This document shows, piece after piece, positions 12,749 through 34,870 of a stretch of DNA of 64,000 nucleotides (the stretch's first letter is position 1; each line of letters begins with the position of its first letter). The DNA lies in assembly GCA_900547995.1 (NCBI GenBank), contig URIY01000002.1:2319-66318 (forward strand), given 5' to 3'. Origin of the DNA: an uncultured Mycoplasmatota bacterium. Its GTDB lineage: Bacteria; Bacillota_I; Bacilli_A; RF39; UBA660. The notes under the pieces are model-generated. The model was not told the origin of the DNA and ran no database searches. It saw nothing but the letters and a program-made list of their open reading frames with translations. The position numbers and the translations under genes are program-made.

Positions 12749-12775
12749 AAGAGACCAGTTGGTCTCTTTATTCGT
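12749..12775. terminator. bidirectional rho-independent terminator between convergent genes
   Basis: Perfect hairpin aaaaaGAGACCAgtTGGTCTCtttatt flanked by A- and T-runs. It sits between the stop of the + strand hydrolase and the stop of the - strand PASTA gene. Confidence 0.8.
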
Positions 12776-14606
12776 TTATAATAATAGTGTAAGTATTACA
12801 ATCTTTAATGGTTGATCCTGAGGTAATAGGTGAATCATCATGAATATATCCTGCAGGATTATTGCCTGCTTTTGTCGTATAATTAAATGTAATATTTGGA
12901 TATTGTGCTGATAATTTACTTTTCAATGTTGCAATAGTTGTATTTGCAGAACCACCAGTTACCCAGTTTGGTTGGATTACTAATGTATATGTATTAGAAC
13001 TATTACAAGTTGGTGTTACAGGATCTGGTTTTTTTTCTGGCTCTGGTCCATTACTAATAGTTAATGTTATACTAGTATTTTCAGCAACAACGGAATTTTT
13101 ACTCATTGATTGTGACATAATATAACCACTATCAACGCTACTACTATATCGATATGTAAATGAACATTTTAATTTAGAACTTGTACATAATGAACTAGCA
13201 CTGCTTTTTGTTTTTCCATAAAAGTTTGGTACAGTTGTAGATGGCCCTTTAGAGTATATTACTTTAATTGTCTCATTTAAATTAATATATTCACCAACAT
13301 TAGGTGTGACAGAAATAATTGTTCCAGTAGGGTTTTCATTAAATTCACTATCTTCTTCATAGTGCAAATTTAAGCCATCTGCCCAAGCTCTAAATGATGC
13401 CATACTATCAAATTTTTCCATTTTTAGTTTTCCTTTAGAAATAGTAAGTTCAATGATTGTTCCTTCTTCAACTTTACTATTAATAGGGTAGTTACTAGAA
13501 ACAATGGCTCCGGTTTCTATTTCATTATCATATGCTTCTTTAAATTTTAATTTTAATTTATTATCTGTGATCCATTTTGTGGCATCACTAACATTCATTG
13601 ATGTAAAATCAGGAATATTAATTTCTTTACCTTTAGAAATAATAATGGTTACAGTTTGTGTTTTCGGATCAATAGTTGTTCCTTCTTTTTCACTTTGACT
13701 TATACAATAATCTCTAGATATATTATCGGAAAATTCATAAGTTATTTCATATTTAATACCATTTCTTTTTAGCCATAATGTTGCTTCAAACAAAGATTTT
13801 CCTTTCAAATCAATCATTGAAACGCTAGCTAAATCTTCTTCTTTACCAAGGGATACTATAAGTTCAAGTGCATCATTTCTTTTAATTTCACCATTAATAT
13901 TTTGTGAAATGATAATATCTTTATCTACTGTATCACTTAATTCATAATTAATACTAACATTGTTCATAAAATTATCATTAATTATCTTTAAAGCTTCATC
14001 AATATTTAAACCAACTAAATTTTGTAAGATAATCGTTTTATCATAATTTGGCCCACTAGATACTGTTAAATTAATTTCTTTTACATCTTTAATTAATGTA
14101 TTCGCGTCAATATCTTGATTTATGATAAAATATTCTTTAACTAAATCACTGTATTCATAATTCTGATTAATCTTAATCTTTTTCTGTTCTGCCCAAATAA
14201 GAACATCATTTATATTTTTATTAATTAAATTACCAAGCACTTCTCTAGTAGGAAGTTTTATTATATTTAAATTAGTAAGTAAATTGAATATAATAAATAG
14301 TCCCATAAATATACCAGTTATACTAAGCATAATATTTTTAATTCTATGTTTTTGAATAATTGAACTAATTCCAAAAGTAATGGTTGTAAGAAAGATAAAT
14401 AAACTATTTATAATAACAAATAAATTATTTACCTCATTTTTAGAATTTAAAATATTATATATTAAATATGATGCACTAAGAAGCATTAATAGTGATACTA
14501 TAATACATAATATAATTAAAGATATCTTTTTTGTTTTCTTTTTTTCATCTTTTTGCTTAATTTTATCAAGACCTTCTATAACTTTTGTTTTCTCATCATC
14601 TTTCAT
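12768..14606 (-). CDS. membrane protein with multiple extracellular PASTA domains and no kinase or PBP domain
   Basis: 612 aa. The N-terminus is a cytoplasmic K/E-rich tail plus 3 TM helices. It is followed by 5-6 repeats matching the PASTA pattern (e.g. NINDVLIWAEQKKIKI...YSDLVKEYFIINQDIDANTLIKDVKEINLTVSSG; LKGKSLFEATLWLKRNGIKYEITYEFSD...ISQS; IPDFTSMNVSDATKWITDNKLKLKFKEAYDNEIETGAIVSSNYP). No Ser/Thr kinase or transpeptidase domain is attached. Confidence 0.7.
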   Translation of the reverse strand: MKDDEKTKVIEGLDKIKQKDEKKKTKKISLIILCIIVSLLMLLSASYLIYNILNSKNEVNNLFVIINSLFIFLTTITFGISSIIQKHRIKNIMLSITGIFMGLFIIFNLLTNLNIIKLPTREVLGNLINKNINDVLIWAEQKKIKINQNYEYSDLVKEYFIINQDIDANTLIKDVKEINLTVSSGPNYDKTIILQNLVGLNIDEALKIINDNFMNNVSINYELSDTVDKDIIISQNINGEIKRNDALELIVSLGKEEDLASVSMIDLKGKSLFEATLWLKRNGIKYEITYEFSDNISRDYCISQSEKEGTTIDPKTQTVTIIISKGKEINIPDFTSMNVSDATKWITDNKLKLKFKEAYDNEIETGAIVSSNYPINSKVEEGTIIELTISKGKLKMEKFDSMASFRAWADGLNLHYEEDSEFNENPTGTIISVTPNVGEYINLNETIKVIYSKGPSTTVPNFYGKTKSSASSLCTSSKLKCSFTYRYSSSVDSGYIMSQSMSKNSVVAENTSITLTISNGPEPEKKPDPVTPTCNSSNTYTLVIQPNWVTGGSANTTIATLKSKLSAQYPNITFNYTTKAGNNPAGYIHDDSPITSGSTIKDCNTYTIIINE

Positions 14607-22807: not shown

Positions 22808-23338
22808 ATGCCAAGAGTTAAAAATGGTACAATACATCGTGCTCGTAGAAAAAAAGTATTAAAAGAAGCTAAAGGATATTTCGGAAGTAAACATAGATTA
22901 TATAGAACAGCTAAAGAACAAGTAATGCATTCATTAAGTTATGCATATAGAGATAGAAAACAAAAGAAACGTGATTTTAGAAAATTATGGATTACAAGAA
23001 TTAATGCTGCATGTCGTGCAAATGACATCAGTTATTCAAAATTCATAAATGGTTTATCAATTGCTAATGTAATTATTAACAGAAAAATGTTATCTGAAAT
23101 TGCTATTGCTAATCCTGAATATTTTAGTAAACTAGTTGAAGTTGCTAAAGAAGCATTAAATGGTGGTGTTAAAAAAACTACTACAAAAGCTGTTAAAGAA
23201 GTAAAAGAAACTAAAAAAGAAGAAACTACTGATTTATCTAAATTAACTGTAGCAGAACTTCGTGAAATGGCTAAGGCTAAAGGTATCGAAGGTGTATCTA
23301 CAATGAAAAAAGCTGACTTAGTTGCAGCACTACAATAA
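22808..23338 (+). CDS. rplT: 50S ribosomal protein L20 with a C-terminal Rho_N/SAP-like extension of about 50 aa
   Basis: [29 protein letters not shown]...[14 protein letters not shown] is canonical L20 for about 125 aa. It is followed by a K/E/T-rich linker and [33 protein letters not shown], which matches the Rho N-terminal (SAP-like) motif. Confidence 0.9.
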
Positions 23339-23416: not shown

Positions 23417-24547
23417 ATGAAGAAAATAACAATACTTGCACTTCATTTAGGATATGGTGGTATTGAAAGATGTATTAGTAATCTTGTTAATTCATTATGC
23501 AATGATTATGAAATTGAGATTATATCTACATATAAACTATTTGATACGCCAGTATTTAAAATAGATGATAAAGTAACAATTAAATACTTAATTACAGATA
23601 TGAAACCTAATAAAAAAGAAATAAAGGAAGCATTATCTAAATTTAAAATAATAACATTTGTTAAAGAATTAATTAAATCTAAAAAAATCCTTAAATTAAA
23701 AAAAGAACTAATGATTAATTATATTAAAAATTGTCATAGTGATGTCATTATTTCTACACGTGATATACATAATTTATGGTTATCTAAATACGGTAATTCT
23801 TCTTCTTTAAAAATTGGATGGGAACATAATTTTCATAATAATGACCAAAAATATATAAATAAAATTATTAAATCAGTATATGGTCTTGATTATTTTGTAT
23901 TAGTATCAAAAAGTTTAAAAGAATTTTATGATGGTAAAACAGGTAATTGTAAATGTGTATATATTCCTAATTCGATTAGTTATATACCTAAAAATAAATC
24001 TAAGTTAGATGGTAAAAATTTAATTTCGGTAGGAAGATTAGAAGTAGAAAAAGGTTATAGTGATTTAATAGATGTATTTGAGATGGTGCATAAAATATAT
24101 CCTGATTTAAAATTAAATATTATAGGTGATGGTTCTTTAAGAGAAGAACTACAAAAAAAGATTAATAAGTTAAATCTTAGTGATAATATTATTCTTCATG
24201 GATTTAAAGATTCAAAATACATTGAAAAAGAATTATTAAAATCATCTATCTATTTAATGAGTTCTTTAACAGAGTCCTTTGGTCTTGTGTTAATTGAAGC
24301 ATCATCTTTTGGACTTCCATGTATTGCTTTTTCTAGTGCAAATGGTGCATGTGAAATAATTAAAGATAATTGGGATGGATATTTAATTGAAAATAGAGAT
24401 AAAGAAAAAATGGCTAAGAGAATTGTTAATTTAATTAAAAATCCTGAAAGAAGAATTATAATGGGGGATAATGCTTATAAGAAAAGTATTAATTATAAAG
24501 CAGATAATATAAAAGATATGTGGGTTAAATTATTTGAAGAGAAGTGA
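23417..24547 (+). CDS. GT4-family glycosyltransferase (GT-B fold)
   Basis: 376 aa. The C-terminal motif ESFGLVLIEASSFGLPCIAFS plus ..GACEII is diagnostic of GT4/GT1 retaining glycosyltransferases. Confidence 0.85.
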   Translation: MKKITILALHLGYGGIERCISNLVNSLCNDYEIEIISTYKLFDTPVFKIDDKVTIKYLITDMKPNKKEIKEALSKFKIITFVKELIKSKKILKLKKELMINYIKNCHSDVIISTRDIHNLWLSKYGNSSSLKIGWEHNFHNNDQKYINKIIKSVYGLDYFVLVSKSLKEFYDGKTGNCKCVYIPNSISYIPKNKSKLDGKNLISVGRLEVEKGYSDLIDVFEMVHKIYPDLKLNIIGDGSLREELQKKINKLNLSDNIILHGFKDSKYIEKELLKSSIYLMSSLTESFGLVLIEASSFGLPCIAFSSANGACEIIKDNWDGYLIENRDKEKMAKRIVNLIKNPERRIIMGDNAYKKSINYKADNIKDMWVKLFEEK

Positions 24548-25022
24548 TAAGATGAAAAAAGTATTATTTATATCTAGTACTGGTGGTCATTTAACCGAAT
24601 TATTAAAACTAAAAAAACTATTTGAAAAATATGATTCATATATAATAACAGAAAAAACAGAGAGTAATCTTTCGTTAAAAGAAGAGTATGGTAATAAAAT
24701 TCACTATTTATTATATGGAACAAAGCATCATTTATTTTCCTATTTGTTAAAAACACCGATTAATATAATTAAAAGTTTATATTTATATTTTAAAATAAGA
24801 CCTAAAGTAGTTGTAACAACTGGGGCGCATACGGCTGTTTATATGTGTTATATTGCTAAATTATTTCGAAGCAAGATTATATATATTGAAACCCTTGCCA
24901 ATATGAAAACAAAAACGTTATCTGGTAAACTTGTTTATCCTATAAGTGATAAATTTATTGTACAATGGGAATCTATGAAAGAATTATATCCTAAGGCAAT
25001 ATATGGGGGATGGATATTTTGA
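24534..25022 (+). CDS. Alg14-like glycosyltransferase membrane-anchoring subunit (PssD/Cps14F-like)
   Basis: 162 aa, MKKVLFISSTGGHLTELLKL..., overlapping the upstream gene and paired with an Alg13-like gene. Confidence 0.75.
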   Translation: MKRSDKMKKVLFISSTGGHLTELLKLKKLFEKYDSYIITEKTESNLSLKEEYGNKIHYLLYGTKHHLFSYLLKTPINIIKSLYLYFKIRPKVVVTTGAHTAVYMCYIAKLFRSKIIYIETLANMKTKTLSGKLVYPISDKFIVQWESMKELYPKAIYGGWIF

Positions 25023-25498
25023 TATTAGTAACATTAGGTACACAGGATAAGAGTTTTACAAGACTATTAGATGCCGTTCAAAGACAAATAGATTTGGGAA
25101 ATATAAAAGATGAAGTTATTGTACAAGCAGGGGTAACAGAATATAAGTCTAGAAATATGAAGATTAAAAAACTTATGCCCATTAAGAAATTAAATAAATT
25201 AATTGAGGAATGTGATTTATTAATTACACATGGAGGAGTGGGCTCTATTTTGTCAGGACTTGAACATAATAAAAAAGTCATTGCAGCGGCAAGATTAAAA
25301 AAATATGATGAACATGAAAGTGATCATCAACTACAAATCGTTGATAAATTTGCCGAAGATGGCTATATATTAAAATTAGATGATTTTGATAAATTGGATG
25401 AAATTATAAAGAAAGCCCAAAATTATAAATTTAAAAAGTATAAATCAAATAATGAAAATTTTGTTAAACTAATAGATAAATTAATTGAAGAATTATAG
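25010..25498 (+). CDS. Alg13-like glycosyltransferase catalytic subunit (Glyco_tran_28_C; PssE/Cps14G-like)
   Basis: 162 aa, ILVTLGTQDKSFTRLL...ITHGGVGSIL, the MurG C-terminal-like fold. Confidence 0.75.
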   Translation: MDILILVTLGTQDKSFTRLLDAVQRQIDLGNIKDEVIVQAGVTEYKSRNMKIKKLMPIKKLNKLIEECDLLITHGGVGSILSGLEHNKKVIAAARLKKYDEHESDHQLQIVDKFAEDGYILKLDDFDKLDEIIKKAQNYKFKKYKSNNENFVKLIDKLIEEL

Positions 25499-25512
25499 AA
25501 AGAAGGAATAAA

Positions 25513-26505
25513 ATGAAAATATTAGTAACAGGTGGAGCAGGATATATTGGAAGTCATACATGTGTTGAACTTCTTAATGCGGGATATGAAATAGTTGTAG
25601 TTGATAACTACTCTAATTCTAAAGAAGAAGTAATAGATTTAATTAAACAAATAACAGGAAAAGATTTTAAAAGTTACAAATTAGATGTATGTGATAAAGA
25701 AGCATTAGAAAAAGTCTTTGAAGAAAATAAAATTGATGCTGCTATACATTTTGCTGGTTATAAGGCTGTTGGTGAGTCAGTGGCTAAACCTTTAATGTAT
25801 TATCGCAATAATATTGATTCAACTCTTACATTGTTAGAGGTAATGAATAAATATAATTGTAAAAAAATTGTTTTTTCATCTAGTGCTACAGTGTATGGAA
25901 AACCAGAAAAACTTCCTATTAAAGAAGATTTTCCACTTAGTACAACTAATCCATATGGAGCAACCAAATTAATGATTGAAGGTATCCTTAAAGATTTATA
26001 TAAAGCTGATAATGCATGGGATATAACTATTCTTAGATACTTTAATCCAATAGGGGCACATAAATCAGGACTAATTGGTGAAAATCCTAACGATATTCCT
26101 AATAACTTAATGCCATATATTGTTAAAGTAGCAACCGGTGAATATGAACAATTGAAAGTATTTGGTAATGATTATAATACTGTAGATGGCACTGGTGTTA
26201 GAGATTATATTCATGTTGTTGATTTGGCCGTAGGTCATGTAAAGGCTATTGACAAGTTAAATGGACTTAGTATTTATAATTTAGGAACTGGCAAGGGAAC
26301 AAGTGTTCTAGAACTTGTTAATACTTTTTCTAAAGTAAATAATGTTAAGGTTAATTATTCAATTGTAGATAGAAGACCAGGGGATATTGATGCGTGCTTT
26401 GCTGATGCTACACTTGCTTTTGAAAAATTAGGATTTAAAGCGGAGCATACCGTTGAAGATATGTGCCGTGATGCCTATAATTTTGTAAATCATAAAGAAA
26501 ACTAA
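25513..26505 (+). CDS. galE: UDP-glucose 4-epimerase
   Basis: 330 aa with the Rossmann motif MKILVTGGAGYIGSH, a catalytic YGATK (YxxxK) and an SSSATVYG triad. Confidence 0.9.
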   Translation: MKILVTGGAGYIGSHTCVELLNAGYEIVVVDNYSNSKEEVIDLIKQITGKDFKSYKLDVCDKEALEKVFEENKIDAAIHFAGYKAVGESVAKPLMYYRNNIDSTLTLLEVMNKYNCKKIVFSSSATVYGKPEKLPIKEDFPLSTTNPYGATKLMIEGILKDLYKADNAWDITILRYFNPIGAHKSGLIGENPNDIPNNLMPYIVKVATGEYEQLKVFGNDYNTVDGTGVRDYIHVVDLAVGHVKAIDKLNGLSIYNLGTGKGTSVLELVNTFSKVNNVKVNYSIVDRRPGDIDACFADATLAFEKLGFKAEHTVEDMCRDAYNFVNHKEN

Positions 26506-26563
26506 TATTTTTCTCTTTATTTCATATAATTTAAGTGTATAAAAAACAAAAAATCAAAAAAAG

Positions 26564-26598
26564 TGTTGACAAACACATGAAGTAGTGATATTATAATC
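26564..26598 (+). promoter_or_regulatory. sigma-A-type promoter for the 26621 gene
   Basis: TTGACA, 17 nt, TATTAT, followed by the ribosome-binding site AAAGGGAGAG. Confidence 0.45.
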
Positions 26599-26620
26599 GG
26601 CAAAAAGGGAGAGATGAAAG

Positions 26621-27349
26621 ATGAAAATGAAAAATTTAAAAGTATTCGTATCTAGTGTAATGGCTGCTGTGACAATGGGAAATGGTATGGTAGTTGCTGC
26701 TAATGCTAAGAGCTCAAATAAAGAAGAAAGTTATGTTTATGTTTATAATGACAAGAAAGATTTGAATAAAGATTATAAAATTGATGAGCCAATTGAATTA
26801 ATTATGCCAATTAGTGCTAAAGTTTCTAAGGATGGAAGTCAATCTTATCAATATGGAACAATTATCGTTGAAAATGATAAGGCTAGTATCAATCCAACAG
26901 AAATTGTTAATGTAATGGAAGCAATGCAAACATTAAATAAGAAAAATGATGCAGATAAATTTGTATATGTTGATGGAAATGCAATCAAGAATGATGATTT
27001 CAAAACTAAAACATCAACTAAAAGATATACTGAAAAACAATTAACAACATATAGAGCAAAACAAAACTTAAAAATAGAAGAAGCTAAAAAGAAAATAGAT
27101 CATAGTAAATATGCTGAATTTATATTACCAGTTATGGGAAGTTATAAATATAAAAATGCAAATGGTAAAACTGCTATATATAGACAAGTAGAATATATTT
27201 ATTTCTATATGCCATATGACCAAATTACTAATAGTACAAACTTTAGTGAAATAGCAAAATCTGTATATAGTCGTTATCAATCAACATTTGATCATGTTGT
27301 AACATATGATGAAATTAAAGCTGAAAAAGCAAAAACAAAAACAAAATAA
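26621..27349 (+). CDS. secreted hypothetical protein
   Basis: 242 aa with a signal peptide (MKMKNLKVFVSSVMAAVTMGNGMVVAANA|KS) and a K/D-rich mature part. No family recognised. Confidence 0.55.
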   Translation: MKMKNLKVFVSSVMAAVTMGNGMVVAANAKSSNKEESYVYVYNDKKDLNKDYKIDEPIELIMPISAKVSKDGSQSYQYGTIIVENDKASINPTEIVNVMEAMQTLNKKNDADKFVYVDGNAIKNDDFKTKTSTKRYTEKQLTTYRAKQNLKIEEAKKKIDHSKYAEFILPVMGSYKYKNANGKTAIYRQVEYIYFYMPYDQITNSTNFSEIAKSVYSRYQSTFDHVVTYDEIKAEKAKTKTK

Positions 27350-27478
27350 TTATGAATATAAATAGGTGTTACTTTGAGTAACACCTTTAATTTTATATAA
27401 TAGGAAAGTAATATAAAAAATTCATAAAATAATTAACAAAAAGTAAAATGATATATTGAACTATAGGTGATGTAATTT

Positions 27479-28280
27479 ATGAAGATAATGAAGGCATATA
27501 AATTTAGACTATATCCTAATATAGAGCAAAAAAAATTAATAAACAAAATAATAGGATGTACAAGATTTATATATAATTATATGTTAGAAAAAAAGATAAA
27601 AAATAATAAACTATCAAGATTTGATTTAAACAATTTAATACCAAGTGTATGTGTGTGTGAAGAATATGAATTAACACCAAAAAAAAGAACAAACAGTAGT
27701 AGGAATAGATATAGGAGTAAAAAGTTTAGTAGTAACAGGTAATGGAGAAACTTTTGGAAACCCAAAATATAATTAAAAATATGAAAAGAGAATAAAAAGA
27801 TTACAAAAAAGTTTATCAAGAAAAATAAAGGGAAGTAATAATTATAAAAAGAATAAAATACTGCTGGCTAGATGTTATCAAAAATTAAGAAATGCAAGAA
27901 AAAAATTAGTAGAGAAAATAGTATCAAAAGTAACTGAATATAATGATATAATTGTATGTGAAAAATTAAAAGTAAAAGAAATGATTGAAATAAATAAATG
28001 TTTGAGAAAAAACATAGTCAATTCCACATTTGGATTAATAATTACAAAAATAAAAGATAAATGTAAATATTTAAATAAAGAATTTATACAAGTAGATACA
28101 TATTATCCAAGCAGTCAAATCTGCAGTAGATGTAATAATATAGACAAAGGAATGAAAATTTTAAGTAAAAGAGAATATAAATGTCATAAATGTGGAATAG
28201 AAATAGAAAGAGATTTAAATGCAAGTATAAATATTATGTATGAAGGATTAATAACATATTATAAAAAACAATATAGTTAA
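27479..28280 (+). pseudogene. tnpB: decayed IS605/IS1341-family tnpB (OrfB) with frameshifts and internal deletions
   Basis: The N-terminus MKIMKAYKFRLYPNIEQKKLINKIIGCTRFIYNYML is the conserved TnpB head. After a +1 frameshift near 27690 comes the RuvC-I motif VVGIDIGVKSLVVTGNGETF.NPK, then a stop. Then RuvC-II ...IVCEKLKVKEM, the zinc-finger CSRC...CHKC and RuvC-III DLNASINI. The total of about 800 bp is well short of the roughly 1.2 kb of an intact tnpB. Confidence 0.75.
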
Positions 28281-28289
28281 AATAAAATT

Positions 28290-28415
28290 TAATAAAATAT
28301 AAAAATATGAATAAAACAATGAGTACGGTAGTGACTATCGGATTTTATGCCTGCATGAGCAGGTAGGTAACGAAAGCTATGAAGCAGAAAACCTTAAGTG
28401 TGAACTTAAGGATTC
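28290..28415 (+). ncRNA. IS605-family right-end structured element / putative TnpB omegaRNA (reRNA) scaffold
   Basis: Locally GC-rich segment immediately 3' of tnpB with stable hairpins (CCTGCatgaGCAGG; CCTTAAGTgtgaACTTAAGG), in the place where omegaRNA is encoded. Confidence 0.5.
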
Positions 28416-28616
28416 AAAAATTTATTTTTGAATTTTGTTCTAGATTAAAGTATCATTTTCCAAATATAAATATAAATTATCCTATATATGATGGATATTC
28501 TTTTGATGGACTTAATCATGGCAATAATTTACTAATTAATATAAGCAATATGGATGATACAAGTAGTAATCCTTTTATGGATGAAATTTTAGATAATTTA
28601 CTAATTGATATAAAGA

Positions 28617-28640
28617 AAAAGACCATTTAGTTGGTCTTTA
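28617..28640. terminator. bidirectional terminator downstream of rnhC
   Basis: Hairpin AAGACCAtttagtTGGTCTTtaattttt at the rnhC stop. Confidence 0.6.
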
Positions 28641-29562
28641 ATTTTTCGGCATTTTTAAAGTTCATTTTAGCAAGTTCATATAATTTATTATACCCATATT
28701 TTTGAACAATCTTTTGTGCAACCTCATCGACATTTGTTCCTGCACCTTTTGGAAGAAACATATCTATACTTTGACCTAATTTGTCAAACTCTTTAATAAA
28801 AATGTATCTACTAATCATGGAAGCACAAGCAACACTAAGACATTTATCTTCAGCTTTAGTAGTAAATGTTATATTTCTGCATACTTTTGGTGTATTCTTC
28901 AAATAACTATAATAAACCATTTCTTTAGCAAACTGATCAACAACAACATAATCAGTATCTTTATATTTGGTTGTTAATTCATTAAGAACTTTATTATGTA
29001 AAATAGCCTTAATTTTATTCATATTTAAATCTTTAGAATAAGATTTATTATAATCACTATTGGATACAATTAAACTTTTATATGGGATTCTTTTAATTAT
29101 TTTAGGGACAACATCCATTATTTTTTCATCAGTAATTTTTTTAGAATCACGAACACCTAGTTCTTCAAGAAATGGGATATCATCTTTTGTTACATAACTA
29201 CTAGTAACAACAATAGGTCCAAAAAAATCTCCTGTGCCAACTTCATCAGATCCAATTGTTGTTGCATAGTATAACTTTTTATCAATAGGATTAACTGTCT
29301 TTTCTTTTGTTTCTTTTTTCTTTTTTTCTTCTAATTTTTTAGTTGGATTTAATCTTCTTTCTGTTGCTTTCCATATATTTGCATCTATATCAGCACTAAC
29401 TCCTTGAAATACCATAGATCCTGATTCATAAAGGGTAACAACAGTATCTTCTTCATCAGCTTGAAATATAGCATATGCTGGTGTTTTAGCTCTTCTTTTA
29501 TCTTTAAAATATTCAATGGCTTTTTCTTTAGTATTTTCACTTACTTTAAATGATATAGTCAT
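28627..29562 (-). CDS. rnhC: ribonuclease HIII
   Basis: 311 aa with the N-terminal TBP-like DUF3378 fold (MTISFKV...VVTLYESGSMVFQG) and an RNase HII/HIII catalytic core (GSDEVGTGDFFGPIVV, DSKK). Confidence 0.9.
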   Translation of the reverse strand: MTISFKVSENTKEKAIEYFKDKRRAKTPAYAIFQADEEDTVVTLYESGSMVFQGVSADIDANIWKATERRLNPTKKLEEKKKKETKEKTVNPIDKKLYYATTIGSDEVGTGDFFGPIVVTSSYVTKDDIPFLEELGVRDSKKITDEKIMDVVPKIIKRIPYKSLIVSNSDYNKSYSKDLNMNKIKAILHNKVLNELTTKYKDTDYVVVDQFAKEMVYYSYLKNTPKVCRNITFTTKAEDKCLSVACASMISRYIFIKEFDKLGQSIDMFLPKGAGTNVDEVAQKIVQKYGYNKLYELAKMNFKNAEKLKTN

Positions 29563-29659
29563 AATAAGCCCTCCTCATATTTATTTTACCATAAAAAAAG
29601 ATAAAATCTTTCTTTTTCTTTAATTTTGTAATATAATTTTTATAGATAGGAGTGATTAA

Positions 29660-30370
29660 ATGAATATTATTGATATTGCAATATTAATTATAATAGCCTT
29701 AGGAGCCGTAGTAGGATTTAAAAGAGGCGTATTTACAGAACTTATATCTGCTCTTAGTTTTATTGTTTCTGTTATTTTAGCCTTTTTATTAAAAAATCCT
29801 GTTTCTATCTTTTTGTATGAGCATTTACCATTCTTTAGTTTTGGAGGTATATTTAAGGGTGTTGCAGTAATTAATATATTACTTTATGAAATAATTGCCT
29901 TTTTAATAATGCTTGCTCTTTTCACAGGTATATTTGCTATTGTTAGAGTTGCAACAAAATTATTTGAAAGAATTTTGAAATTTACCATTGTTTTAAGTAT
30001 ACCATCTAAGTTACTTGGTATAATAGTAGGGGCTATTCATTACTATATAATTGTCTTTATTGCTTTATATGTTTTATCTTTACCTATTTTGGGACTTGAT
30101 ATTTTAAAGGGGTCTAAATTTAAAAACGGTATTTTAAATAATACACCAATTCTTTCTTCAGTAGTTAAAGAAAGTGTAAAAATATTTGATGAATTTGAAA
30201 CATTAAAAGATAAGTATAAAGATAATACATCTGTAGATGAATTTAACAATGAGGCTTTAGATTTAATGCTTAAATACAAAGTTGTTAGTGTCGAGTCAGC
30301 CGATAAATTGGTTGAATTAAACAAAATTAAAGTAGATAAAAATATTATAAATAAGTATAGGGAGGTATAA
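29660..30370 (+). CDS. cvpA: CvpA-family membrane protein (colicin V production protein-like; YshB-like)
   Basis: MNIIDIAILIIIALGAVVGFKRGVFTELISALSFIVSVILAF is the CvpA signature N-terminus. It lies divergent to rnhC, as yshB does next to rnhC in B. subtilis. Confidence 0.8.
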   Translation: MNIIDIAILIIIALGAVVGFKRGVFTELISALSFIVSVILAFLLKNPVSIFLYEHLPFFSFGGIFKGVAVINILLYEIIAFLIMLALFTGIFAIVRVATKLFERILKFTIVLSIPSKLLGIIVGAIHYYIIVFIALYVLSLPILGLDILKGSKFKNGILNNTPILSSVVKESVKIFDEFETLKDKYKDNTSVDEFNNEALDLMLKYKVVSVESADKLVELNKIKVDKNIINKYREV

Positions 30371-30372
30371 TT

Positions 30373-30672
30373 ATGGAAATTGTACATGCAACAGATGAAA
30401 ATTTTAATGAATTAATAAATGGAAAGAAAGTTATTGTTGATTTTTTCGCAACATGGTGTGGACCTTGTAAAATGTTATCACCAGTGTTAGAAAGCTTAAG
30501 TACAGAGTACCCAGAGGTTACTTTTGTAAAAGTAGATGTAGATGATTGTCATAATGTTTCTAAAGAGTATGGTATTATGAGTGTACCAACTCTTATGAAA
30601 TTTGAAAATGGTAAGTTAATTGATACAAAAGTTGGATATCAAAATATTAATGAATTAAGAAAATGGTTGTAA
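30373..30672 (+). CDS. trxA: thioredoxin
   Basis: 99 aa with the WCGPCK active site. Confidence 0.92.
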   Translation: MEIVHATDENFNELINGKKVIVDFFATWCGPCKMLSPVLESLSTEYPEVTFVKVDVDDCHNVSKEYGIMSVPTLMKFENGKLIDTKVGYQNINELRKWL

Positions 30673-30691
30673 TAACCATTTTTTTAATTTC

Positions 30692-30725
30692 AATTGACAA
30701 TTAAAAAATTAAAATGTATTATTTT
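30692..30725 (+). promoter_or_regulatory. sigma-A-type promoter for the first sigma4-like gene, overlapping the trxA terminator
   Basis: TTGACA, 17 nt, TATTAT. A hairpin atggttgtaataaccattttttt at the trxA stop precedes it. Confidence 0.5.
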
Positions 30726-30746
30726 GTTATAGAAATGGGGCATTTT

Positions 30747-31904
30747 ATGAAAATATACTCACAAGAAGAGATTAGAAAACAAATTATATGTCTTTTAACA
30801 GGAATACCTTTTGGGAAAAATCAAAAATATATAGAAAATAAGCAAAATATAAATATTTTACTTGATGATTTTTTTAACATAAATAAAGAAACTATTAGTG
30901 TTTTGAGTCAAAAAGAAACTTATATTTTAAGAAAAAAATATGGTGTTTTAGATGATGGTAAAGTACAAACATTAGATAAAATAGGAAAAGAATTTAAGAT
31001 TACAAATGAAAGAATAAGACAAATACTTATGAATATTACTAAAAAATTAAGAAAAGAAATTGATAAACCAAATGATATATTAAATGATTATAAAGAAAGT
31101 AACTCTATTAGTAATTTGTTAGATTTAAAATTAATTTATATTTTTGATTATGATATTGTAAAAAAACTATATCAAGAGTTTAATGATGAAATGACTTTAA
31201 GGGAACTAGTTCATAAATCAAGCCTTCAAGTAAAAAATGTTAAAGAATTAGAACAAAACGAATTTGAACAGATAGAAATTAAATTAAGCAAGTTAAATTT
31301 ATCATTTAATGATTGTATTTCTATATGTAAAAATAGAATAAGTATGACCGATATAGCAAAAGATTTAACATATAAATTGGAAGCAGACGAATCATATTAT
31401 GTATATATTAATGATATTGTAAGAGAAATGTGTAACTTAAATTTAAGACAAATTTTTGGTTTTAATGAAGAGACAACAGGTATTCTTAGAAAAATATATG
31501 GTGTATTAGATCATGGTATTAAACCATCAATAGAAGATATTCATAAGTATATGAATACAAATAATAATACTTGGTGCAGCAATAAAATCATTAAGGCATT
31601 TGATGACTTAAATAATATTTTTAAGTGTTTTCTTTTAGGAGAAGCAATTAAAATGAGCAATGAAAAGATGCTACAAATGGATATTAAGTATTTTAACTTA
31701 GATAATGCAAGTTATATTAATTTAAAAAAAGGCGGTATTAATACTTTAGAAAAATTAATAGAATTAGTCTATAATGACAATTTAGATATTAAATATCCCT
31801 ATGATAGAGCGTTGATAGAAAGAATTGTTAAAAGAATAGTATATATTTATAAAATAAATGATAATAGTGAAAAGGAAAGAACATTAAAGAAATCATTTAA
31901 ATAA
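30747..31904 (+). CDS. uncharacterised protein with two sigma-70-region-4-like HTH modules alternating with helix-hairpin-helix (RpoA-CTD-like) modules
   Basis: ETYILRKKYGVLDDGKVQTLDKIGKEFKITNERIRQILMNITKKLRKEI resembles sigma70 region 4.2 (compare ..RERIRQIEAKALRKLR). A second, degenerate copy is TTGILRKIYGVLDHGIKPSIEDIH. HhH-like segments are ..IEIKLSKLNLSFNDCI.. and ..FNLDNASYINLKKGGINTLEKLIEL... There is no sigma region 2. The start is most likely the ATG at 30747 (the six-frame ORF begins at 30714). Confidence 0.6.
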   Translation: MKIYSQEEIRKQIICLLTGIPFGKNQKYIENKQNINILLDDFFNINKETISVLSQKETYILRKKYGVLDDGKVQTLDKIGKEFKITNERIRQILMNITKKLRKEIDKPNDILNDYKESNSISNLLDLKLIYIFDYDIVKKLYQEFNDEMTLRELVHKSSLQVKNVKELEQNEFEQIEIKLSKLNLSFNDCISICKNRISMTDIAKDLTYKLEADESYYVYINDIVREMCNLNLRQIFGFNEETTGILRKIYGVLDHGIKPSIEDIHKYMNTNNNTWCSNKIIKAFDDLNNIFKCFLLGEAIKMSNEKMLQMDIKYFNLDNASYINLKKGGINTLEKLIELVYNDNLDIKYPYDRALIERIVKRIVYIYKINDNSEKERTLKKSFK

Positions 31905-31988
31905 TACTTCTTTATAATGTAATCATTTTTTTCTTGACATTTGGTCAAATATGATGTAGTATAATTGCTACGAAAGAAGGGGTTTATT

Positions 31989-33389
31989 ATGAATAATAAT
32001 ATGAATGAAGAAATCAAAAAAAAATTAATAATTGATATCTGTTATTCTAATCATAATTCTAGTTGTTATATATCAAGTGAGCCAAGTGAATATAGTCATT
32101 ACAAATCATTTTTTGATAAAATACTTGATGATCTTTTTAATTTGGATAATAAAACTGTAGGTAATTTGACAGAAAATGAAACATTTTTCTTAAGAAAAAA
32201 ATATGGATTATTAGATGATGGAAAAACTTTGTCAGCAAAAGAAATCGCAAGTGAATTAAATGTAAGCTATTCGTATGTATCGCAGGCATTATTAAAAGGA
32301 TATCGTAAACTTAAGACAAGTATTTGGAAAGAGAGACAGTTAAGCACATTCAAAGATTATTTAGAAAAGAATCAAATAAGTGCATTGCTAGATGCTGATA
32401 TATCTGAATTGATTAGTGATAATATATATAAAAAATTAAGCGAAAAAACGGGGCATTGGTATTTTTGCAGTTTCAGGGATTTAGTGAATATTTCTAGTTA
32501 TGAATTGTTATCAATACCAAACTTTGGACTTGCTGGTGTTGAAAAACTTCGTGATTTATTAAGACAATATAATTTATCGTTTGCTAATGATATTGCAATT
32601 CCAGAAAATCATCGAATTACTAAGTATGATATCAGAAAAATTTTAATATATAAGTTTGAAGTAGATGAAAAATTTTATAATTGTATTAATCCACTGGTTG
32701 ATGAATTGTATGATTTAAGAGAAGAAAAAGTTTTACCATTAGGTACAATTGGAACTTTTTTAATAAGGAAAATATGTGGTATATTAGATAACGGAATTAG
32801 ACCTTCGTTAACTCAAGTTAAAGAAGATTTAGAGCATAGATATAAGGTAGAATATACGCATAAAAACTTTAATGAACTTATTGCATCATCTTTTTCATGG
32901 TTACACAAAAAATTTGAAGAATATGCTTATAATGAGATAATGAGGCTAAGCAAAGATGAAATATTACCAATAAAATTAAGATATTTTAAATTTAATAGAA
33001 TATTTAATGAATCATTACTTAAGAGACTACAAGCATTTCACGTTTATACATTTGGTGATCTTCTTGATTTTAAAAAAGATTCAAACATATATTATGAAGA
33101 AACTTTACAATATTATAGTAGTGACGAATTAGAACAATTTATTGTTTTTATGGTTGAAGAAAGAGGATTAACTAAGGAACAATTAGAAGAGAAAAGAAGA
33201 AAAGAAAGAGAAGAAAGATTAGAAAAAGAAGCTCTTATTGAAAAAAGAAAAAATGAATTATCAAAAGCACATGATGTATTAATTGAACAAAAAGAAAAAA
33301 TTAGAATAGAAATGCTTAGAAAAATGGATTACTATGATAATCAATTAAATAGTGTAAATGAAAAAATAAAAAAATTAGAAAATAAGTAA
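31989..33389 (+). CDS. paralogue of the upstream gene: sigma4-like HTH x2 plus HhH x2 plus a C-terminal coiled coil
   Basis: ETFFLRKKYGLLDDGKTLSAKEIASELNVSYSYVSQALLKGYRKLK is sigma region-4-like. Also present are LLSIPNFGLAGVEKLRDLLRQYNLSF (HhH, alpha-CTD-like), GTFLIRKICGILDNGIRPSLTQV (second sigma4-like), LQAFHVYTFGDLLDF, and a K/E-rich coiled coil at the C-terminus. It has its own TTGACA..TATAAT promoter and a GAAGGGG ribosome-binding site. The ATG is at 31989. Confidence 0.6.
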   Translation: MNNNMNEEIKKKLIIDICYSNHNSSCYISSEPSEYSHYKSFFDKILDDLFNLDNKTVGNLTENETFFLRKKYGLLDDGKTLSAKEIASELNVSYSYVSQALLKGYRKLKTSIWKERQLSTFKDYLEKNQISALLDADISELISDNIYKKLSEKTGHWYFCSFRDLVNISSYELLSIPNFGLAGVEKLRDLLRQYNLSFANDIAIPENHRITKYDIRKILIYKFEVDEKFYNCINPLVDELYDLREEKVLPLGTIGTFLIRKICGILDNGIRPSLTQVKEDLEHRYKVEYTHKNFNELIASSFSWLHKKFEEYAYNEIMRLSKDEILPIKLRYFKFNRIFNESLLKRLQAFHVYTFGDLLDFKKDSNIYYEETLQYYSSDELEQFIVFMVEERGLTKEQLEEKRRKEREERLEKEALIEKRKNELSKAHDVLIEQKEKIRIEMLRKMDYYDNQLNSVNEKIKKLENK

Positions 33390-33390
33390 A

Positions 33391-33417
33391 AACAACTCGA
33401 TAGTTGTTTTTTTGTAA
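33391..33417 (+). terminator. rho-independent terminator after the second sigma4-like gene
   Basis: aaaCAACTcgatAGTTGtttttttgt. Confidence 0.6.
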
Positions 33418-33457
33418 TATTATACTTTTTTTGATAATACTAAATATGGTGATATTT

Positions 33458-34870
33458 ATGGGAAAAAATGTACTATGGAATAGAGATTATAATATAAAAA
33501 ATTATGAAAATAATAACATGTCTAAAGATACAGATATTTTAATAATAGGTGGTGGAATAACTGGTCTTACAACATCTTATTTTTTAAAAGAAAGCAATTA
33601 TAAAATTGCTTTAATAGATAAGGATAAAATAGGATGTGGTATAACCTTTAAAACAATTGGTAAAATATCTTATCTACAAGGTGATATTTATAGTAAATTA
33701 AATAAACTTTTTAATGCAAAAATATCTAAATTATATTTTCATTCACAAATAGATGGTAGTAAAATAATCAAAGATATTATATCTACTAATAATATTGATT
33801 GTGATTTAGAAAAGGTTTTATCTATAATTTTTACTTTGGAAGATAAAAATATAAAAAAAATTAATGAAGAAAAAGGTATACTTAAAGATTTTGGTGTAAA
33901 AGTAAATGATGTTAAGGATAATAGGATAAAGGACGGTATAAGTGTAGATGATACGTATATATTTAATCCTATTAAGTACATAAATTCTTTAGTTAAAATA
34001 TTAGAAAAGAAAATAAATATTTACGAAAATGTACTTGCTAATGATATAAAAAAGGTACAAGACTATTATTTAGTTTCAACTAGTAGTGGTGTTATAAAAA
34101 CAAAAATAATAGTCGTTGCTTGTCATTATCCCTTTTTTATTATTCCAAGTTTTATACCTCTTAAAACATATGTAAAAAGAGAGTACGTTAATGCTTGCCA
34201 ATTAGAAAATAAACATTTTACGGCTATTAGTATTGATAACTCACTACATTCTATAAGGTTTTATAAAGATTATATAATATATGGTTCTAATAAACATAAA
34301 CTTACAAGTAAAATGGATTATAAAGAAAATTATGATGAAAGTAGAAAAGAATTTATCAAATATTTTCATAAAGAACCAGAATATACTTGGATGAATCAAG
34401 ATATTGTTAGTAATGATATGCTTCCCTTTATAGGAGAGATTGATTCTAATCTTTTTGTAGCAACCGCTTTTAATGGTTGGGGTATGACTTGTGGAACTAT
34501 ATCTGGACAAATTATATCGGATTTAATATTACATAAGAAAAACAAATATAAAGAACTTTTTAATCCTAAAAGAAATAACTTTAATTTAATTTTTTCATCT
34601 ACAATAGGTAGTTTTAGTTATTTAAAAGCATATGTAGTAAGTTTATTTAAGAAAAATAATCCAAAATATATAAAAATACAGGGTATTAATTATGGAGTAT
34701 ATAAAGATGATAATGGTCAAAACCATTATATTAAACTAATTTGTCCTCATATGAAATGTCATTTAGTATTTAATAGAGAAGCTAAAACATGGGATTGTCC
34801 TTGCCATGGCTCAAGATTTGATATAGATGGTAATTTAATTGAAGGACCAGCTAACAAAAATATTAATTAA
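33458..34870 (+). CDS. FAD-dependent oxidoreductase with a C-terminal Rieske [2Fe-2S] domain (YhfW-like)
   Basis: The dinucleotide-binding motif DILIIGGGITGLTTSYFL is at the N-terminus. The C-terminal Rieske motif is CPHMKCH...(17)...CPCHGSRFDIDGNLIEGPA. The start was moved to the ATG at 33458, which has a GGTGA ribosome-binding site. Confidence 0.75.
   Translation: MGKNVLWNRDYNIKNYENNNMSKDTDILIIGGGITGLTTSYFLKESNYKIALIDKDKIGCGITFKTIGKISYLQGDIYSKLNKLFNAKISKLYFHSQIDGSKIIKDIISTNNIDCDLEKVLSIIFTLEDKNIKKINEEKGILKDFGVKVNDVKDNRIKDGISVDDTYIFNPIKYINSLVKILEKKINIYENVLANDIKKVQDYYLVSTSSGVIKTKIIVVACHYPFFIIPSFIPLKTYVKREYVNACQLENKHFTAISIDNSLHSIRFYKDYIIYGSNKHKLTSKMDYKENYDESRKEFIKYFHKEPEYTWMNQDIVSNDMLPFIGEIDSNLFVATAFNGWGMTCGTISGQIISDLILHKKNKYKELFNPKRNNFNLIFSSTIGSFSYLKAYVVSLFKKNNPKYIKIQGINYGVYKDDNGQNHYIKLICPHMKCHLVFNREAKTWDCPCHGSRFDIDGNLIEGPANKNIN

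What the first reader, a model, noticed from the sequence alone, without database searches (positions are those of the whole stretch)
30690..33420. Tandem paralogous proteins built from duplicated sigma70-region-4-like HTH and RpoA-CTD-like HhH modules, with no sigma region 2
Each of two adjacent genes (about 386 and 467 aa) has its own -35/-10 promoter. Each encodes a protein with the module order [sigma region 4.2-like HTH]-[helix-hairpin-helix]-[second, degenerate sigma4-like HTH]-[HhH]. The sigma4-like HTHs carry the ..ERIRQI....KLRK.. recognition helix seen in RpoD. The HhH modules resemble the RNA polymerase alpha-subunit CTD (L.LS..N.L...GI.T...L). The second protein also has a long K/E-rich coiled coil. 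Neither has a sigma region 2 core-binding domain, so neither can be a bona fide sigma factor. Fusing -35-element and UP-element reading heads suggests a promoter-binding regulator, an anti-sigma/RNAP decoy, or a nucleoid- or phage-derived transcription hijacker. The pair lies in an accessory stretch (trxA upstream; YhfW-like and CotF-like genes downstream). I do not recognise the architecture as a described family.
Basis: partly seen in the sequence, partly recalled or inferred. Interest (0 to 1): 0.78.

Follow-up and report, generated by a model that had tools for sequence, protein, structure and literature searches.

The report
Sigma-4 plus alpha-CTD fusion protein cassettes
Two neighbouring genes of an uncultured, very AT-rich human-gut bacterium encode proteins built only from copies of two promoter-reading parts of RNA polymerase (sigma region 4 and the alpha C-terminal domain); they belong to an unnamed family, and the second gene is swapped for very different versions between strains of one species.

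Summary

- Only gene 1 keeps the RpoD-like ERIRQI recognition helix.
- The alpha-CTD-like modules have lost the DNA-binding "265 determinant".
- The flanking genes are conserved core genes, not accessory DNA.

Two findings are new:
- The pair belongs to an unnamed family, sigma4-(alphaCTD)n with a C-terminal helix. About 100 of the 145 best cluster representatives have this architecture, and all sampled loci have 22-27% GC.
- In genomes 96-98% identical in the flanks, the slot between trxA and the YhfW-like gene holds one to three cassettes. I counted at least seven types, 27-51% identical to each other.

My best guess (about 0.4) is a promoter-DNA-binding regulator that uses the first sigma-4 module. 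The main rival is a mimic or decoy of RNA polymerase surfaces. Nothing functional is shown.

The parts
30694..30722 (+). Sigma-A-type promoter of gene 1 (TTGACA, 17 nt, TATTAT)
   Evidence: It overlaps the upstream in-frame ATG at 30714, so the real start is 30747.
30747..31904 (+). Gene 1 (cassette type T1), 385 aa, module order sigma4-alphaCTD-sigma4'-alphaCTD'
   Evidence: It is 95-97% identical across the strains compared; within-type dN/dS is 0.22-0.38.
30843..31064 (+). Gene 1 module 1: region 4 of primary-sigma type (aa 33-106). Recognition helix is TNERIRQILMNITKKLRKE; net charge +7.
   Evidence: Pfam 5e-7, NCBIfam RpoD_Cterm 1.8e-12, family HMM 3.6e-27. It keeps 4 of 5 -35-contact residues.
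31098..31316 (+). Gene 1 module 2: alpha-CTD fold (aa 118-190). It is acidic (net -6) and the 265 determinant is replaced.
31401..31625 (+). Gene 1 module 3: degenerate second sigma-4-like module (aa 219-293)
   Evidence: Family HMM 4.8e-14; internal repeat hhalign 98.6%. It has no PDB hit on its own.
31650..31841 (+). Gene 1 module 4: partial alpha-CTD (aa 302-365). The first helix-hairpin-helix is kept (NASYINLKKGGINT); the second is lost.
   Evidence: phmmer against RpoA 8i23 gives 0.0016; family HMM 1.7e-7.
31934..31962 (+). Promoter of gene 2 (TTGACA, 17 nt, TAGTAT). It is conserved in front of every cassette of the variable slot.
31989..33389 (+). Gene 2 (cassette type T5), 466 aa: sigma4-alphaCTD-sigma4'-(weak alphaCTD')-long C-terminal helix
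32106..32327 (+). Gene 2 module 1: sigma-4 (aa 40-113). The recognition helix is degenerate (SYSYVSQALLKGYRKLK).
   Evidence: Family HMM 1.6e-25; Pfam 7e-4; 1 of 5 -35-contact residues kept.
32367..32594 (+). Gene 2 module 2: alpha-CTD (aa 127-202). The NFG hairpin is kept; R265->N and K298->A.
32679..32894 (+). Gene 2 module 3: second sigma-4-like module (aa 231-302). Together with the stretch before it, this is the best-conserved part among cassette types.
32949..33080 (+). Gene 2 module 4: weak alpha-CTD-like remnant (aa 321-364)
   Evidence: i-Evalue 0.003 only; it aligns with module 4 of the paralogues.
33174..33383 (+). Gene 2 C-terminal 70-residue helix. The first part is rich in E, K and R; the end is zipper-like.
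   Evidence: AlphaFold helix 396-465; 55% charged with weak heptad periodicity; conserved among cassette types.
32030..33134 (.). Strain-variable segment. In genomes 96-98% identical on both sides, this stretch is replaced by other cassette types or by two cassettes.

Best explanation
**What it is.** Genes 1 and 2 are functional, independently transcribed members of an unnamed protein family. The family consists only of RNA polymerase promoter-recognition modules: one region 4 of a primary (group 1) sigma factor, one or more RpoA alpha-CTD domains, and usually a C-terminal helix. In this lineage the sigma4-alphaCTD unit was duplicated inside the protein. The gene was then amplified into a tandem array whose content differs between strains.

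**Most likely mechanism (inferred, not shown).** The proteins are DNA-binding transcription regulators.
- The basic N-terminal sigma-4 module reads a -35-like hexamer. In gene 1 it should read something close to TTGACA, because E585, R586, R588 and Q589 equivalents are kept.
- This module works without RNA polymerase, so it would occlude or mark promoter-upstream DNA.
- The alpha-CTD-derived and second sigma-4-like modules have lost their DNA-contact residues. They would serve as a rigid scaffold or as protein-contact surfaces.
- The C-terminal helix of gene 2 would provide spacing and self-association.
- The cassette types differ most in the recognition helix and in the first hairpin of the alpha-CTD. 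They would therefore differ in target specificity.
For: **Shown**
- Architecture and folds.
- No region 2 or 3.
- Own consensus promoters.
- Purifying selection within cassette types: dN/dS 0.11-0.38, against 0.17-0.23 for the neighbouring DAO gene.
- Intact ORFs in many metagenomes: 87 member sequences for the gene 1 cluster.
- The family-wide consensus of the sigma-4 module (…[42 protein letters not shown]) and of the alpha-CTD module (…LGLSVRTYNCLKRAGINT…IRNLGKKSLEEI) is almost that of B. subtilis SigA region 4 and RpoA CTD, DNA-contact residues included.
- Gene 1 keeps N-E-R-I-R-Q, and only module 1 is basic (+7 and +4).
- Variability among cassette types peaks in the recognition helix and the alpha-CTD hairpin.
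- All family loci examined have 22-27% GC.

**Inferred from established knowledge**
- Isolated sigma-4 domains and sigma-4-like HTH proteins of the LuxR/GerE type bind DNA on their own.
- In promoter complexes the alpha-CTD sits next to sigma region 4.
Against: - No binding site, regulon or conserved gene neighbour was found.
- The alpha-CTD 265 determinant is lost in both window proteins.
- Gene 2 has lost 4 of 5 -35-contact residues, so at least gene 2 may not bind DNA in the canonical way.
- Strain-level cassette turnover is more typical of conflict or recognition loci than of ordinary regulators.
- pTM of about 0.7 suggests a compact multi-module body. I could not inspect the coordinates to see whether the DNA-binding face of sigma-4 is exposed.
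Confidence: 0.4

Rival explanations
1. **RNA polymerase surface mimic or decoy.** The modules present copies of sigma-A region 4 and of the alpha-CTD to proteins that normally dock on those surfaces. Such proteins include activators, Spx-like factors and phage host-takeover proteins in the manner of AsiA or gp67. The mimic would titrate or sense them. Cassette diversity would reflect an arms race.
For: - The cassette array is hypervariable within one species: at least seven types at 27-51% identity, with copy number 1-3.
- DNA-contact residues are lost while the folds are kept.
- The Tyr equivalent to B. subtilis alpha Y263 (the Spx-contact residue, from my own knowledge) is present in module 4 of all six paralogues for which one search aligned it (T1, P0008, T2, T3, T4, T6), while R265 is lost in all of them. 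In gene 2 (T5), my reading of the alignment puts Leu at this position.
- Evolution is faster than in the neighbours: dN/dS reaches 0.53-0.63 between T2 variants and between T5 and T7.
Against: - A decoy should stay close to the invariant host target, yet the types differ by 50-70%.
- There is no effector domain.
- PADLOC gives no hit beyond the generic sigma-4 match.
- There is no phage, prophage or defence-island context.
- I found no Spx gene in the window, though the window is only 64 kb.
Confidence: 0.25
2. **Nucleoid-associated or DNA-bridging protein of very AT-rich genomes.** Multiple HhH and HTH modules plus a self-associating helix would bind AT-rich DNA with low specificity and organise it.
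For: - The family occurs with 1 to 5 or more alpha-CTD repeats.
- In relatives these repeats keep the minor-groove-binding determinant.
- All loci have 22-27% GC.
- The promoters are strong consensus promoters.
Against: - In the two window proteins the alpha-CTD modules are acidic and lack R265, K298 and S299.
- Nucleoid proteins are usually conserved, not swapped between strains.
Confidence: 0.12
3. **Half of a split sigma factor, or a flap-docking subunit.** The sigma-4 module would dock on the beta-flap of core RNA polymerase. Together with a separately encoded region-2 protein, as in B. subtilis SigO-RsoA, it would redirect transcription.
For: - Module 1 is most similar to region 4 of primary sigma factors, including region 4.1.
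- B. subtilis SigO-RsoA is a two-subunit sigma factor whose region 2 and region 4 lie on separate proteins (my own knowledge).
Against: - No region-2-like ORF is present next to the genes here or in any related locus.
- The duplicated architecture and the variable number of alpha-CTD modules have no counterpart in sigma factors.
Confidence: 0.08
4. **Decaying remnants** of a pseudogenised sigma factor and rpoA duplicate, with no function.
For: - Modules 3 and 4 are degenerate, and gene 2 has lost its recognition residues.
- dN/dS is somewhat higher than in the neighbours.
Against: - ORFs of 385-479 aa are intact in dozens of metagenomes.
- Promoters and ribosome-binding sites are conserved.
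- dN/dS is well below 1.
- The predicted folds are confident.
- The architecture recurs in about 100 of the 145 distant cluster representatives examined.
Confidence: 0.03

Closest known systems
Region 4 (4.1 + 4.2) of primary sigma factors (RpoD/SigA; Pfam PF04545)
   Same: - Module 1 aligns over the whole of region 4, including the LRxRxG-LDDG loop and, in gene 1, the ERIRQI recognition helix.
   Different: - There is no region 1, 2 or 3, so no core binding through region 2 and no -10 recognition.
- R584 is replaced in all cassette types aligned.
- Gene 2 has lost most -35 contacts.
- The module occurs twice per protein.
C-terminal domain of the RNA polymerase alpha subunit (RpoA alpha-CTD; PF03118)
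- The sequence profile matches at E 3.5e-8.
   Different: - There is no alpha-NTD or dimerisation domain.
- The 265 determinant is replaced in the window proteins.
- Module 4 lacks the second hairpin.
Stand-alone sigma-4-like HTH regulators (LuxR/GerE/NarL C-terminal domains)
- These proteins bind DNA without RNA polymerase, usually as dimers (my own knowledge).
   Different: - Sequence similarity points to primary sigma region 4, not to GerE.
- There is no receiver or ligand domain.
- No member of that class is known to me to be fused to alpha-CTD domains.
B. subtilis two-subunit sigma factor SigO-RsoA (YvrI-YvrHa)
   Same: It is a precedent for a protein that carries sigma region 4 but no region 2 (my own knowledge).
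   Different: - That system needs an adjacent partner gene with region 2. None is present here.
- SigO has no alpha-CTD modules.
Unnamed sigma4-(alphaCTD)n-helix proteins of uncultured low-GC gut Bacillota
   Same: - The N-terminal lead helix, the sigma-4 motif L.E.ET..LRKR.G..D.G..Q, the following alpha-CTD and the C-terminal helix are shared.
- HMMs built from these proteins recognise all four modules of gene 1.
   Different: - Most have one sigma-4 and 1-4 canonical alpha-CTDs: S-A 40, S-A-A 34, S-A-A-A 11.
- The duplicated S-A-S-A form with degenerate modules is almost confined to the window's clade.
- No cassette array was seen at their loci.

Membership tests
Sigma-70 family sigma factor | Region 2 (core binding, -10 recognition; PF04542) | tested here: not met
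   No Sigma70_r2 or r3 hit at E<=1 in either protein, and none in 95 family members. Only about 45 residues precede region 4.
Sigma-70 family sigma factor | Region 4 HTH (PF04545) | tested here: met
RNA polymerase alpha subunit (RpoA) | N-terminal dimerisation and assembly domain (PF01193/PF01000) | tested here: not met
   No such Pfam hit.
RNA polymerase alpha subunit (RpoA) | Alpha-CTD fold | tested here: met
RNA polymerase alpha subunit (RpoA) | DNA-binding 265 determinant (R265, N268, G296, K298, S299; E. coli numbering, from my own knowledge) | tested here: not met
   Gene 1 module 2 has D, K, E, N, E at these positions. Gene 1 module 4 has A at R265 and lacks the second hairpin. Gene 2 module 2 has N, K, G, A, G.
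Split sigma factor (SigO-RsoA type) | Adjacent partner gene encoding a region-2-like protein | tested here: not met
   The neighbours are RNase HIII, CvpA, thioredoxin, a DAO-Rieske oxidoreductase, CotF-like proteins and U32 peptidases. Small unknown ORFs have no sigma hit.
LuxR/GerE-type HTH regulators (PF00196) | Match to the GerE model | tested here: not met
   GerE is not among the Pfam hits at E<=1. Only structural similarity is seen.
Anti-sigma or phage sigma-4-binding proteins (AsiA, Rsd, gp67) | Sequence or fold similarity to such proteins | tested here: not met
Known anti-phage defence proteins (PADLOC) | Match to a defence-system model beyond a shared generic domain | tested here: not met
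   There is only a 52-residue sigma-4 match to MzaA (1.7e-5) for gene 1, and nothing for gene 2 or the other cassette types.
Unnamed sigma4-(alphaCTD)n-helix family (defined here) | N-terminal lead helix plus sigma-4 with the motif L.E.ET..LRK(R/K).G..D.G | tested here: met
   HMM from 52 distant members scores 3.6e-27 (gene 1) and 1.6e-25 (gene 2).
Unnamed sigma4-(alphaCTD)n-helix family (defined here) | At least one alpha-CTD directly after the sigma-4 module | tested here: met
   9.8e-6 and 7.1e-8 with the family alpha-CTD HMM.
Unnamed sigma4-(alphaCTD)n-helix family (defined here) | C-terminal long helix or zipper | tested here: inconclusive
   Gene 2 has a 70-residue helix, but its heptad signal is weak. 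Gene 1 has only a 29-residue basic helix.

The most novel reading that the evidence does not exclude
The locus is a strain-variable array of 'RNA polymerase surface mimics'. Each cassette would display sigma-A region 4 and alpha-CTD look-alikes. These would intercept, or be triggered by, phage or mobile-element proteins that hijack host transcription through those two surfaces. Cassette turnover would be the footprint of that conflict. If true, this would be a new kind of transcription-level immunity, or a decoy system with no enzymatic effector.
Probability: 0.13. Interest if true: 0.9.

Novelty: new variant of a known kind. Interest (0 to 1): 0.66.

Why it matters
Sigma region 4 and the alpha-CTD are the two parts of bacterial RNA polymerase that read the upstream half of promoters, and most activators and several phage takeover proteins dock on them. 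Here they are cut loose from the enzyme, fused to each other, repeated, and in one gut species arranged as interchangeable cassettes.

That arrangement is unexpected. It gives a concrete handle on how promoter-recognition modules can be re-used outside RNA polymerase. If the proteins bind -35 or UP-like DNA, they would be direct competitors of the holoenzyme in very AT-rich genomes. If they act as mimics, they would be a new kind of decoy. Either way the family is unannotated and lies in abundant, uncultured human-gut bacteria.

Tried and rejected
- **Phage origin.** tblastn of gene 2 against 50,697 phage records found nothing. IMG/VR found nothing. BFVD fold search had no hit at E<=0.001. PHROGs hit only the generic sigma factor family. 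One of the 'Bacteriophage sp.' hits for a distant family member (H2, MT837142.1) turned out, when inspected, to be a bacterial rpsD-rpoA-rplQ operon mislabelled in GenBank; H1 and H3 were not inspected.
- **Defence system.** PADLOC gave only a sigma-4 match to MzaA.
- **Conserved neighbourhood or sporulation link.** Distant members sit in unrelated housekeeping contexts: mfd-spoVT, tsaEBD, gpr-spoIIP and others.
- **Split sigma partner.** No region-2-like ORF is nearby.
- **Pseudogene remnant.** Rejected on dN/dS, intact ORFs and conserved promoters.
- **Spx gene in the window.** None found.
- **Organism name.** The genome-contig scan did not return the window's own genome, and cluster look-ups carry no names. 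I can only say it is an uncultured human-gut bacterium with about 25% GC, probably of the Bacilli-type Bacillota.
- **Searches that added little.** The third word-indexed protein search with a family profile and the metagenome DNA scan (one extra locus) gave little. The afdb50 fold library was unavailable.
- **Literature.** Five searches found no description of the architecture. Absence from this library is not proof of absence.
Full report
**1. What is in the sequence**

The region holds two + strand ORFs. ORF 30714-31904 begins inside its own predicted promoter (TTGACA at 30694, 17 nt, TATTAT ending at 30722). The Met that is invariant in the family alignment is residue 12, and it is preceded by a GGGG ribosome-binding site. 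Gene 1 is therefore 30747-31904 (385 aa).

Gene 2 is 31989-33389 (466 aa). It has a GAAGGGG ribosome-binding site and a TTGACA-17-TAGTAT promoter at 31934-31962.

In this 25% GC DNA, loose promoter-like matches are no more frequent than in shuffles (59 found, 56.6 expected). The strict pattern TTGACA-N17-TANNNT is different. It occurs six times against 1.77 expected, and 0 of 100 shuffles reach six. All six are on the + strand immediately upstream of genes, and two of them belong to these genes. The promoter claim is therefore as good as sequence alone can make it.

**2. Paralogy and module structure**

The two proteins share 31% identity over 334 residues (E 2e-42).

- Pfam finds Sigma70_r4 in both (5e-7 and 7e-4).
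- NCBIfam finds RpoD_Cterm (1.8e-12) and several RpoA models. These hit residues 295-371 of protein 1 (ORF numbering) and 171-215 of protein 2.
- A profile of 13 family sequences hits SigA region 4 (1.1e-9) with positions 51-113 among solved structures. It hits the RpoA CTD (3.5e-8) with positions 122-197.
- The N-terminal half aligns to the C-terminal half with hhalign probability 98.6% (E 1.4e-15). Each protein is thus a tandem duplication of one [lead helix - sigma 4 - alpha-CTD] unit.

For an independent test I built sigma-4 and alpha-CTD HMMs from 52 distant relatives, excluding this clade.

| Protein | Parse | Module E-values |
|---|---|---|
| Protein 1 | S-A-S-A | 3.6e-27, 9.8e-6, 4.8e-14, 1.7e-7 |
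| Protein 2 | S-A-S | 1.6e-25, 7.1e-8, 1.1e-12; fourth module only i-E 0.003 |

**3. Residue-level corrections** (E. coli numbering from my own knowledge)

- **Recognition helix.** Gene 1 module 1 reads T-N-E-R-I-R-Q-I. It keeps E585, R586, R588 and Q589 and loses R584. Gene 2 reads S-Y-S-Y-V-S-Q-A and keeps only Q589.
- **Alpha-CTD '265 determinant'.** It is replaced in every module of the two window proteins that could be aligned (gene 2's weak fourth module was not aligned).
  - Gene 1 module 2: R265->D, N268->K, G296->E, K298->N, S299->E.
  - Gene 1 module 4: R265->A, with no second hairpin.
  - Gene 2 module 2: R265->N, K298->A.
- **Charge.** Only module 1 is basic (+7 in protein 1, +4 in protein 2). 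The alpha-CTD-like modules are acidic or near neutral (net -6 to +2).
- **C-terminal helix of gene 2.** The long 'coiled coil' is one predicted 70-residue helix. It is 55% charged, and its best heptad register is only 0.41 hydrophobic. It looks like an E/K/R-rich single helix followed by a short zipper-like end.

The phrase 'fusion of -35 and UP-element reading heads' therefore describes the ancestry of the modules, and probably many relatives. It does not describe the present state of these two proteins.

**4. A wider, unnamed family**

Word-indexed searches find only 8-10 close relatives, all from human-gut metagenomes and none with a name. The exhaustive profile search of 1.84 billion cluster representatives gives 3477 hits at E<=1e-3 and 143 at E<=1e-10.

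I examined the 145 best hits outside the clade.

- About 100 start with one sigma-4 module followed by 1-5 alpha-CTDs: S-A 40, S-A-A 34, S-A-A-A 11, and so on.
- They typically end in a C-terminal helix of the type ERYKKL..EK..L..R..ELD.EI.
- S-A-S-A is rare.
- A Pfam scan of 95 members gives RNA_pol_A_CTD in 82, Sigma70_r4 in 39, and region 2 or 3 in none.

The family consensus of both modules is almost identical to B. subtilis SigA region 4 and RpoA CTD, DNA-contact residues included.

Every sampled locus has 22-27% GC. The contexts are unrelated housekeeping neighbourhoods. One member lies on an unidentified element (L012).

No curated family in Pfam, NCBIfam, PHROGs or PADLOC covers the architecture. 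Five literature searches found no description.

**5. An unexpected property: the locus is a cassette array**

Contigs from other gut samples are 96-98% identical to the window on both sides, at 24340-32030 and from about 33134-33187 onward. The body of gene 2 is replaced.

Typing at 80% identity gives T1 (gene 1) and the variable types T2-T5. T6, T7 and T8 were added. Identity between types is 27-51%.

| Locus | Arrangement between trxA and the DAO-Rieske (YhfW-like) gene |
|---|---|
| window | T1-T5 |
| L005 | T1-T4-T2 |
| L006, L007 | T1-T3-T2 |
| L015, L016 | T1-T3 |
| L017, L020 | T1-T4 |
| L018, L019 | broken T1-T2 |
| L021 | T8 - duplicated 100-aa 5' fragment of the DAO gene - T7 |
| L022 | a single T6 |

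L021 has flanks 98.3% and 95.5% identical to the window. L022 is a more distant relative (76-86% identity).

- All variable-slot cassettes aligned (the window's T5 and those in L005, L015, L017 and L018) carry the same promoter and ribosome-binding site.
- The cassettes share a conserved central segment and C-terminal helix. Together with the shared promoter, these are the likely recombination substrates.
- Mosaic C-termini, as in P0026 against P0029, point the same way.
- Within types, dN/dS is 0.11-0.38 (T1, T3, T4), 0.53 (T2) and 0.63 (T5 against T7). The neighbouring DAO gene gives 0.17-0.23. The genes are functional but evolve faster than their surroundings.
- Variability between types peaks in the N-terminal lead, the recognition helix of module 1 and the first hairpin of the alpha-CTD.
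- Some types, such as T2, still have canonical R265, N268, G296 and S299.

**6. How it most likely works**

The following is shown: the architecture, the folds, the absence of region 2, the independent promoters, purifying selection, family membership and cassette turnover.

The following is inferred. The basic, SigA-like module 1 binds a -35-like DNA element on its own, as isolated sigma-4 domains and LuxR/GerE-type proteins do. The remaining modules form a scaffold or protein-contact surface. The C-terminal helix mediates spacing or self-association. Cassette types differ in target. I give this regulator or promoter-occlusion model about 0.4.

| Reading | Confidence | Main point |
|---|---|---|
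| DNA-binding regulator via module 1 | 0.40 | See above |
| RNA polymerase surface mimic or decoy | 0.25 | Favoured by strain-level turnover and by loss of DNA contacts with retained folds; weakened by the great divergence of the supposed mimics and by the absence of any phage or defence context |
| Nucleoid-type binder of AT-rich DNA | 0.12 | Fits the relatives better than these two proteins |
| Split sigma or flap-docking subunit | 0.08 | No region-2 partner nearby |
| Decaying remnants | 0.03 | Contradicted by intact ORFs, conserved promoters and dN/dS |

**7. Comparison with what is known, and novelty**

The proteins are not sigma factors (no region 2) and not alpha subunits (no NTD). They are not GerE-family members by sequence. 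They are not a SigO-RsoA-type split sigma (no partner gene). They are not known anti-sigma or defence proteins.

They are divergent, internally duplicated members of an undescribed sigma4-(alphaCTD)n family. I rate this as a new variant of a known kind: HTH/HhH nucleic-acid or RNAP-related regulators assembled from known domains. The architecture is undescribed as far as my searches reach, and the cassette behaviour is unusual.

My interest score is 0.66. The finding is real and would surprise specialists in bacterial transcription, but no function is demonstrated.

Noticed in passing
window 32030-33134; loci L005, L006, L015, L017, L018, L020, L021, L022: The slot between trxA and the DAO-Rieske gene holds 1-3 cassettes. 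I counted at least seven types, 27-51% identical to each other, in genomes otherwise 96-98% identical. All variable-slot cassettes aligned share one promoter.
   Followed up: yes
L021 5533-5835: A 100-aa duplicate of the 5' end of the downstream DAO-Rieske gene, 97% identical to window 33360-33756, sits between two cassettes. It is a footprint of a duplication or insertion that carried flanking sequence. In this strain gene 1 (T1) is replaced by a 399-aa type (P0034) that lacks alpha-CTD modules.
   Followed up: partly
window about 27650-28280 (ORF 27981-28280 and upstream); L015 3161-4300: An IS605-family TnpB (HTH_OrfB_IS605 / Cas12f1-like TNB) is fragmented in the window and in several strains. 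It is intact (379 aa) in L015.
   Followed up: partly
window 22808-23338 (+): Ribosomal protein L20 carries a C-terminal extension of about 35 residues that matches Rho_N / SAP / HeH DNA- or RNA-binding motifs (1e-9).
   Followed up: no
window 12768-14606 (-): A 612-aa protein has five PASTA repeats but no detectable kinase or transpeptidase domain in Pfam.
   Followed up: no
proteins P0047, P0036, P0042, P0050, P0059: Unrelated metagenomic proteins consist only of tandem repeats. P0047 (938 aa) has 7 or more sigma-4 modules. Others have 8-13 alpha-CTD modules, some with a signal-peptide-like N-terminus.
   Followed up: no
L023 (GenBank MT837142.1, 'UNVERIFIED: Bacteriophage sp.'): The record is a bacterial rpsD-rpoA-rplQ-ecfA operon, not phage. 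At least this apparent phage hit for the family is a labelling artefact.
   Followed up: yes
L012 (contig carrying P0049): One short family member (263 aa, S-A) lies among unannotated genes next to a helicase of a type found in phages. This may be an unrecognised mobile element or phage.
   Followed up: partly
window 20863, 26566, 30694, 31934, 37686, 41784 (+): Six perfect TTGACA-N17-TAnnnT promoters lie upstream of genes. One precedes the L21 leader (Rfam RF00559, 20909-20975) and one precedes greA.
   Followed up: partly
module 4 of cassette types T1, T2, T3, T4, T6 and P0008: The Tyr equivalent to B. subtilis RpoA Y263 (the Spx-contact residue, from my own knowledge) is present in every aligned fourth module, while the DNA-contact Arg is lost in all of them. 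By my reading of the alignment, the window's gene 2 (T5) has Leu there. trxA, a classic Spx target in B. subtilis, lies directly upstream. This may be coincidence.
   Followed up: partly
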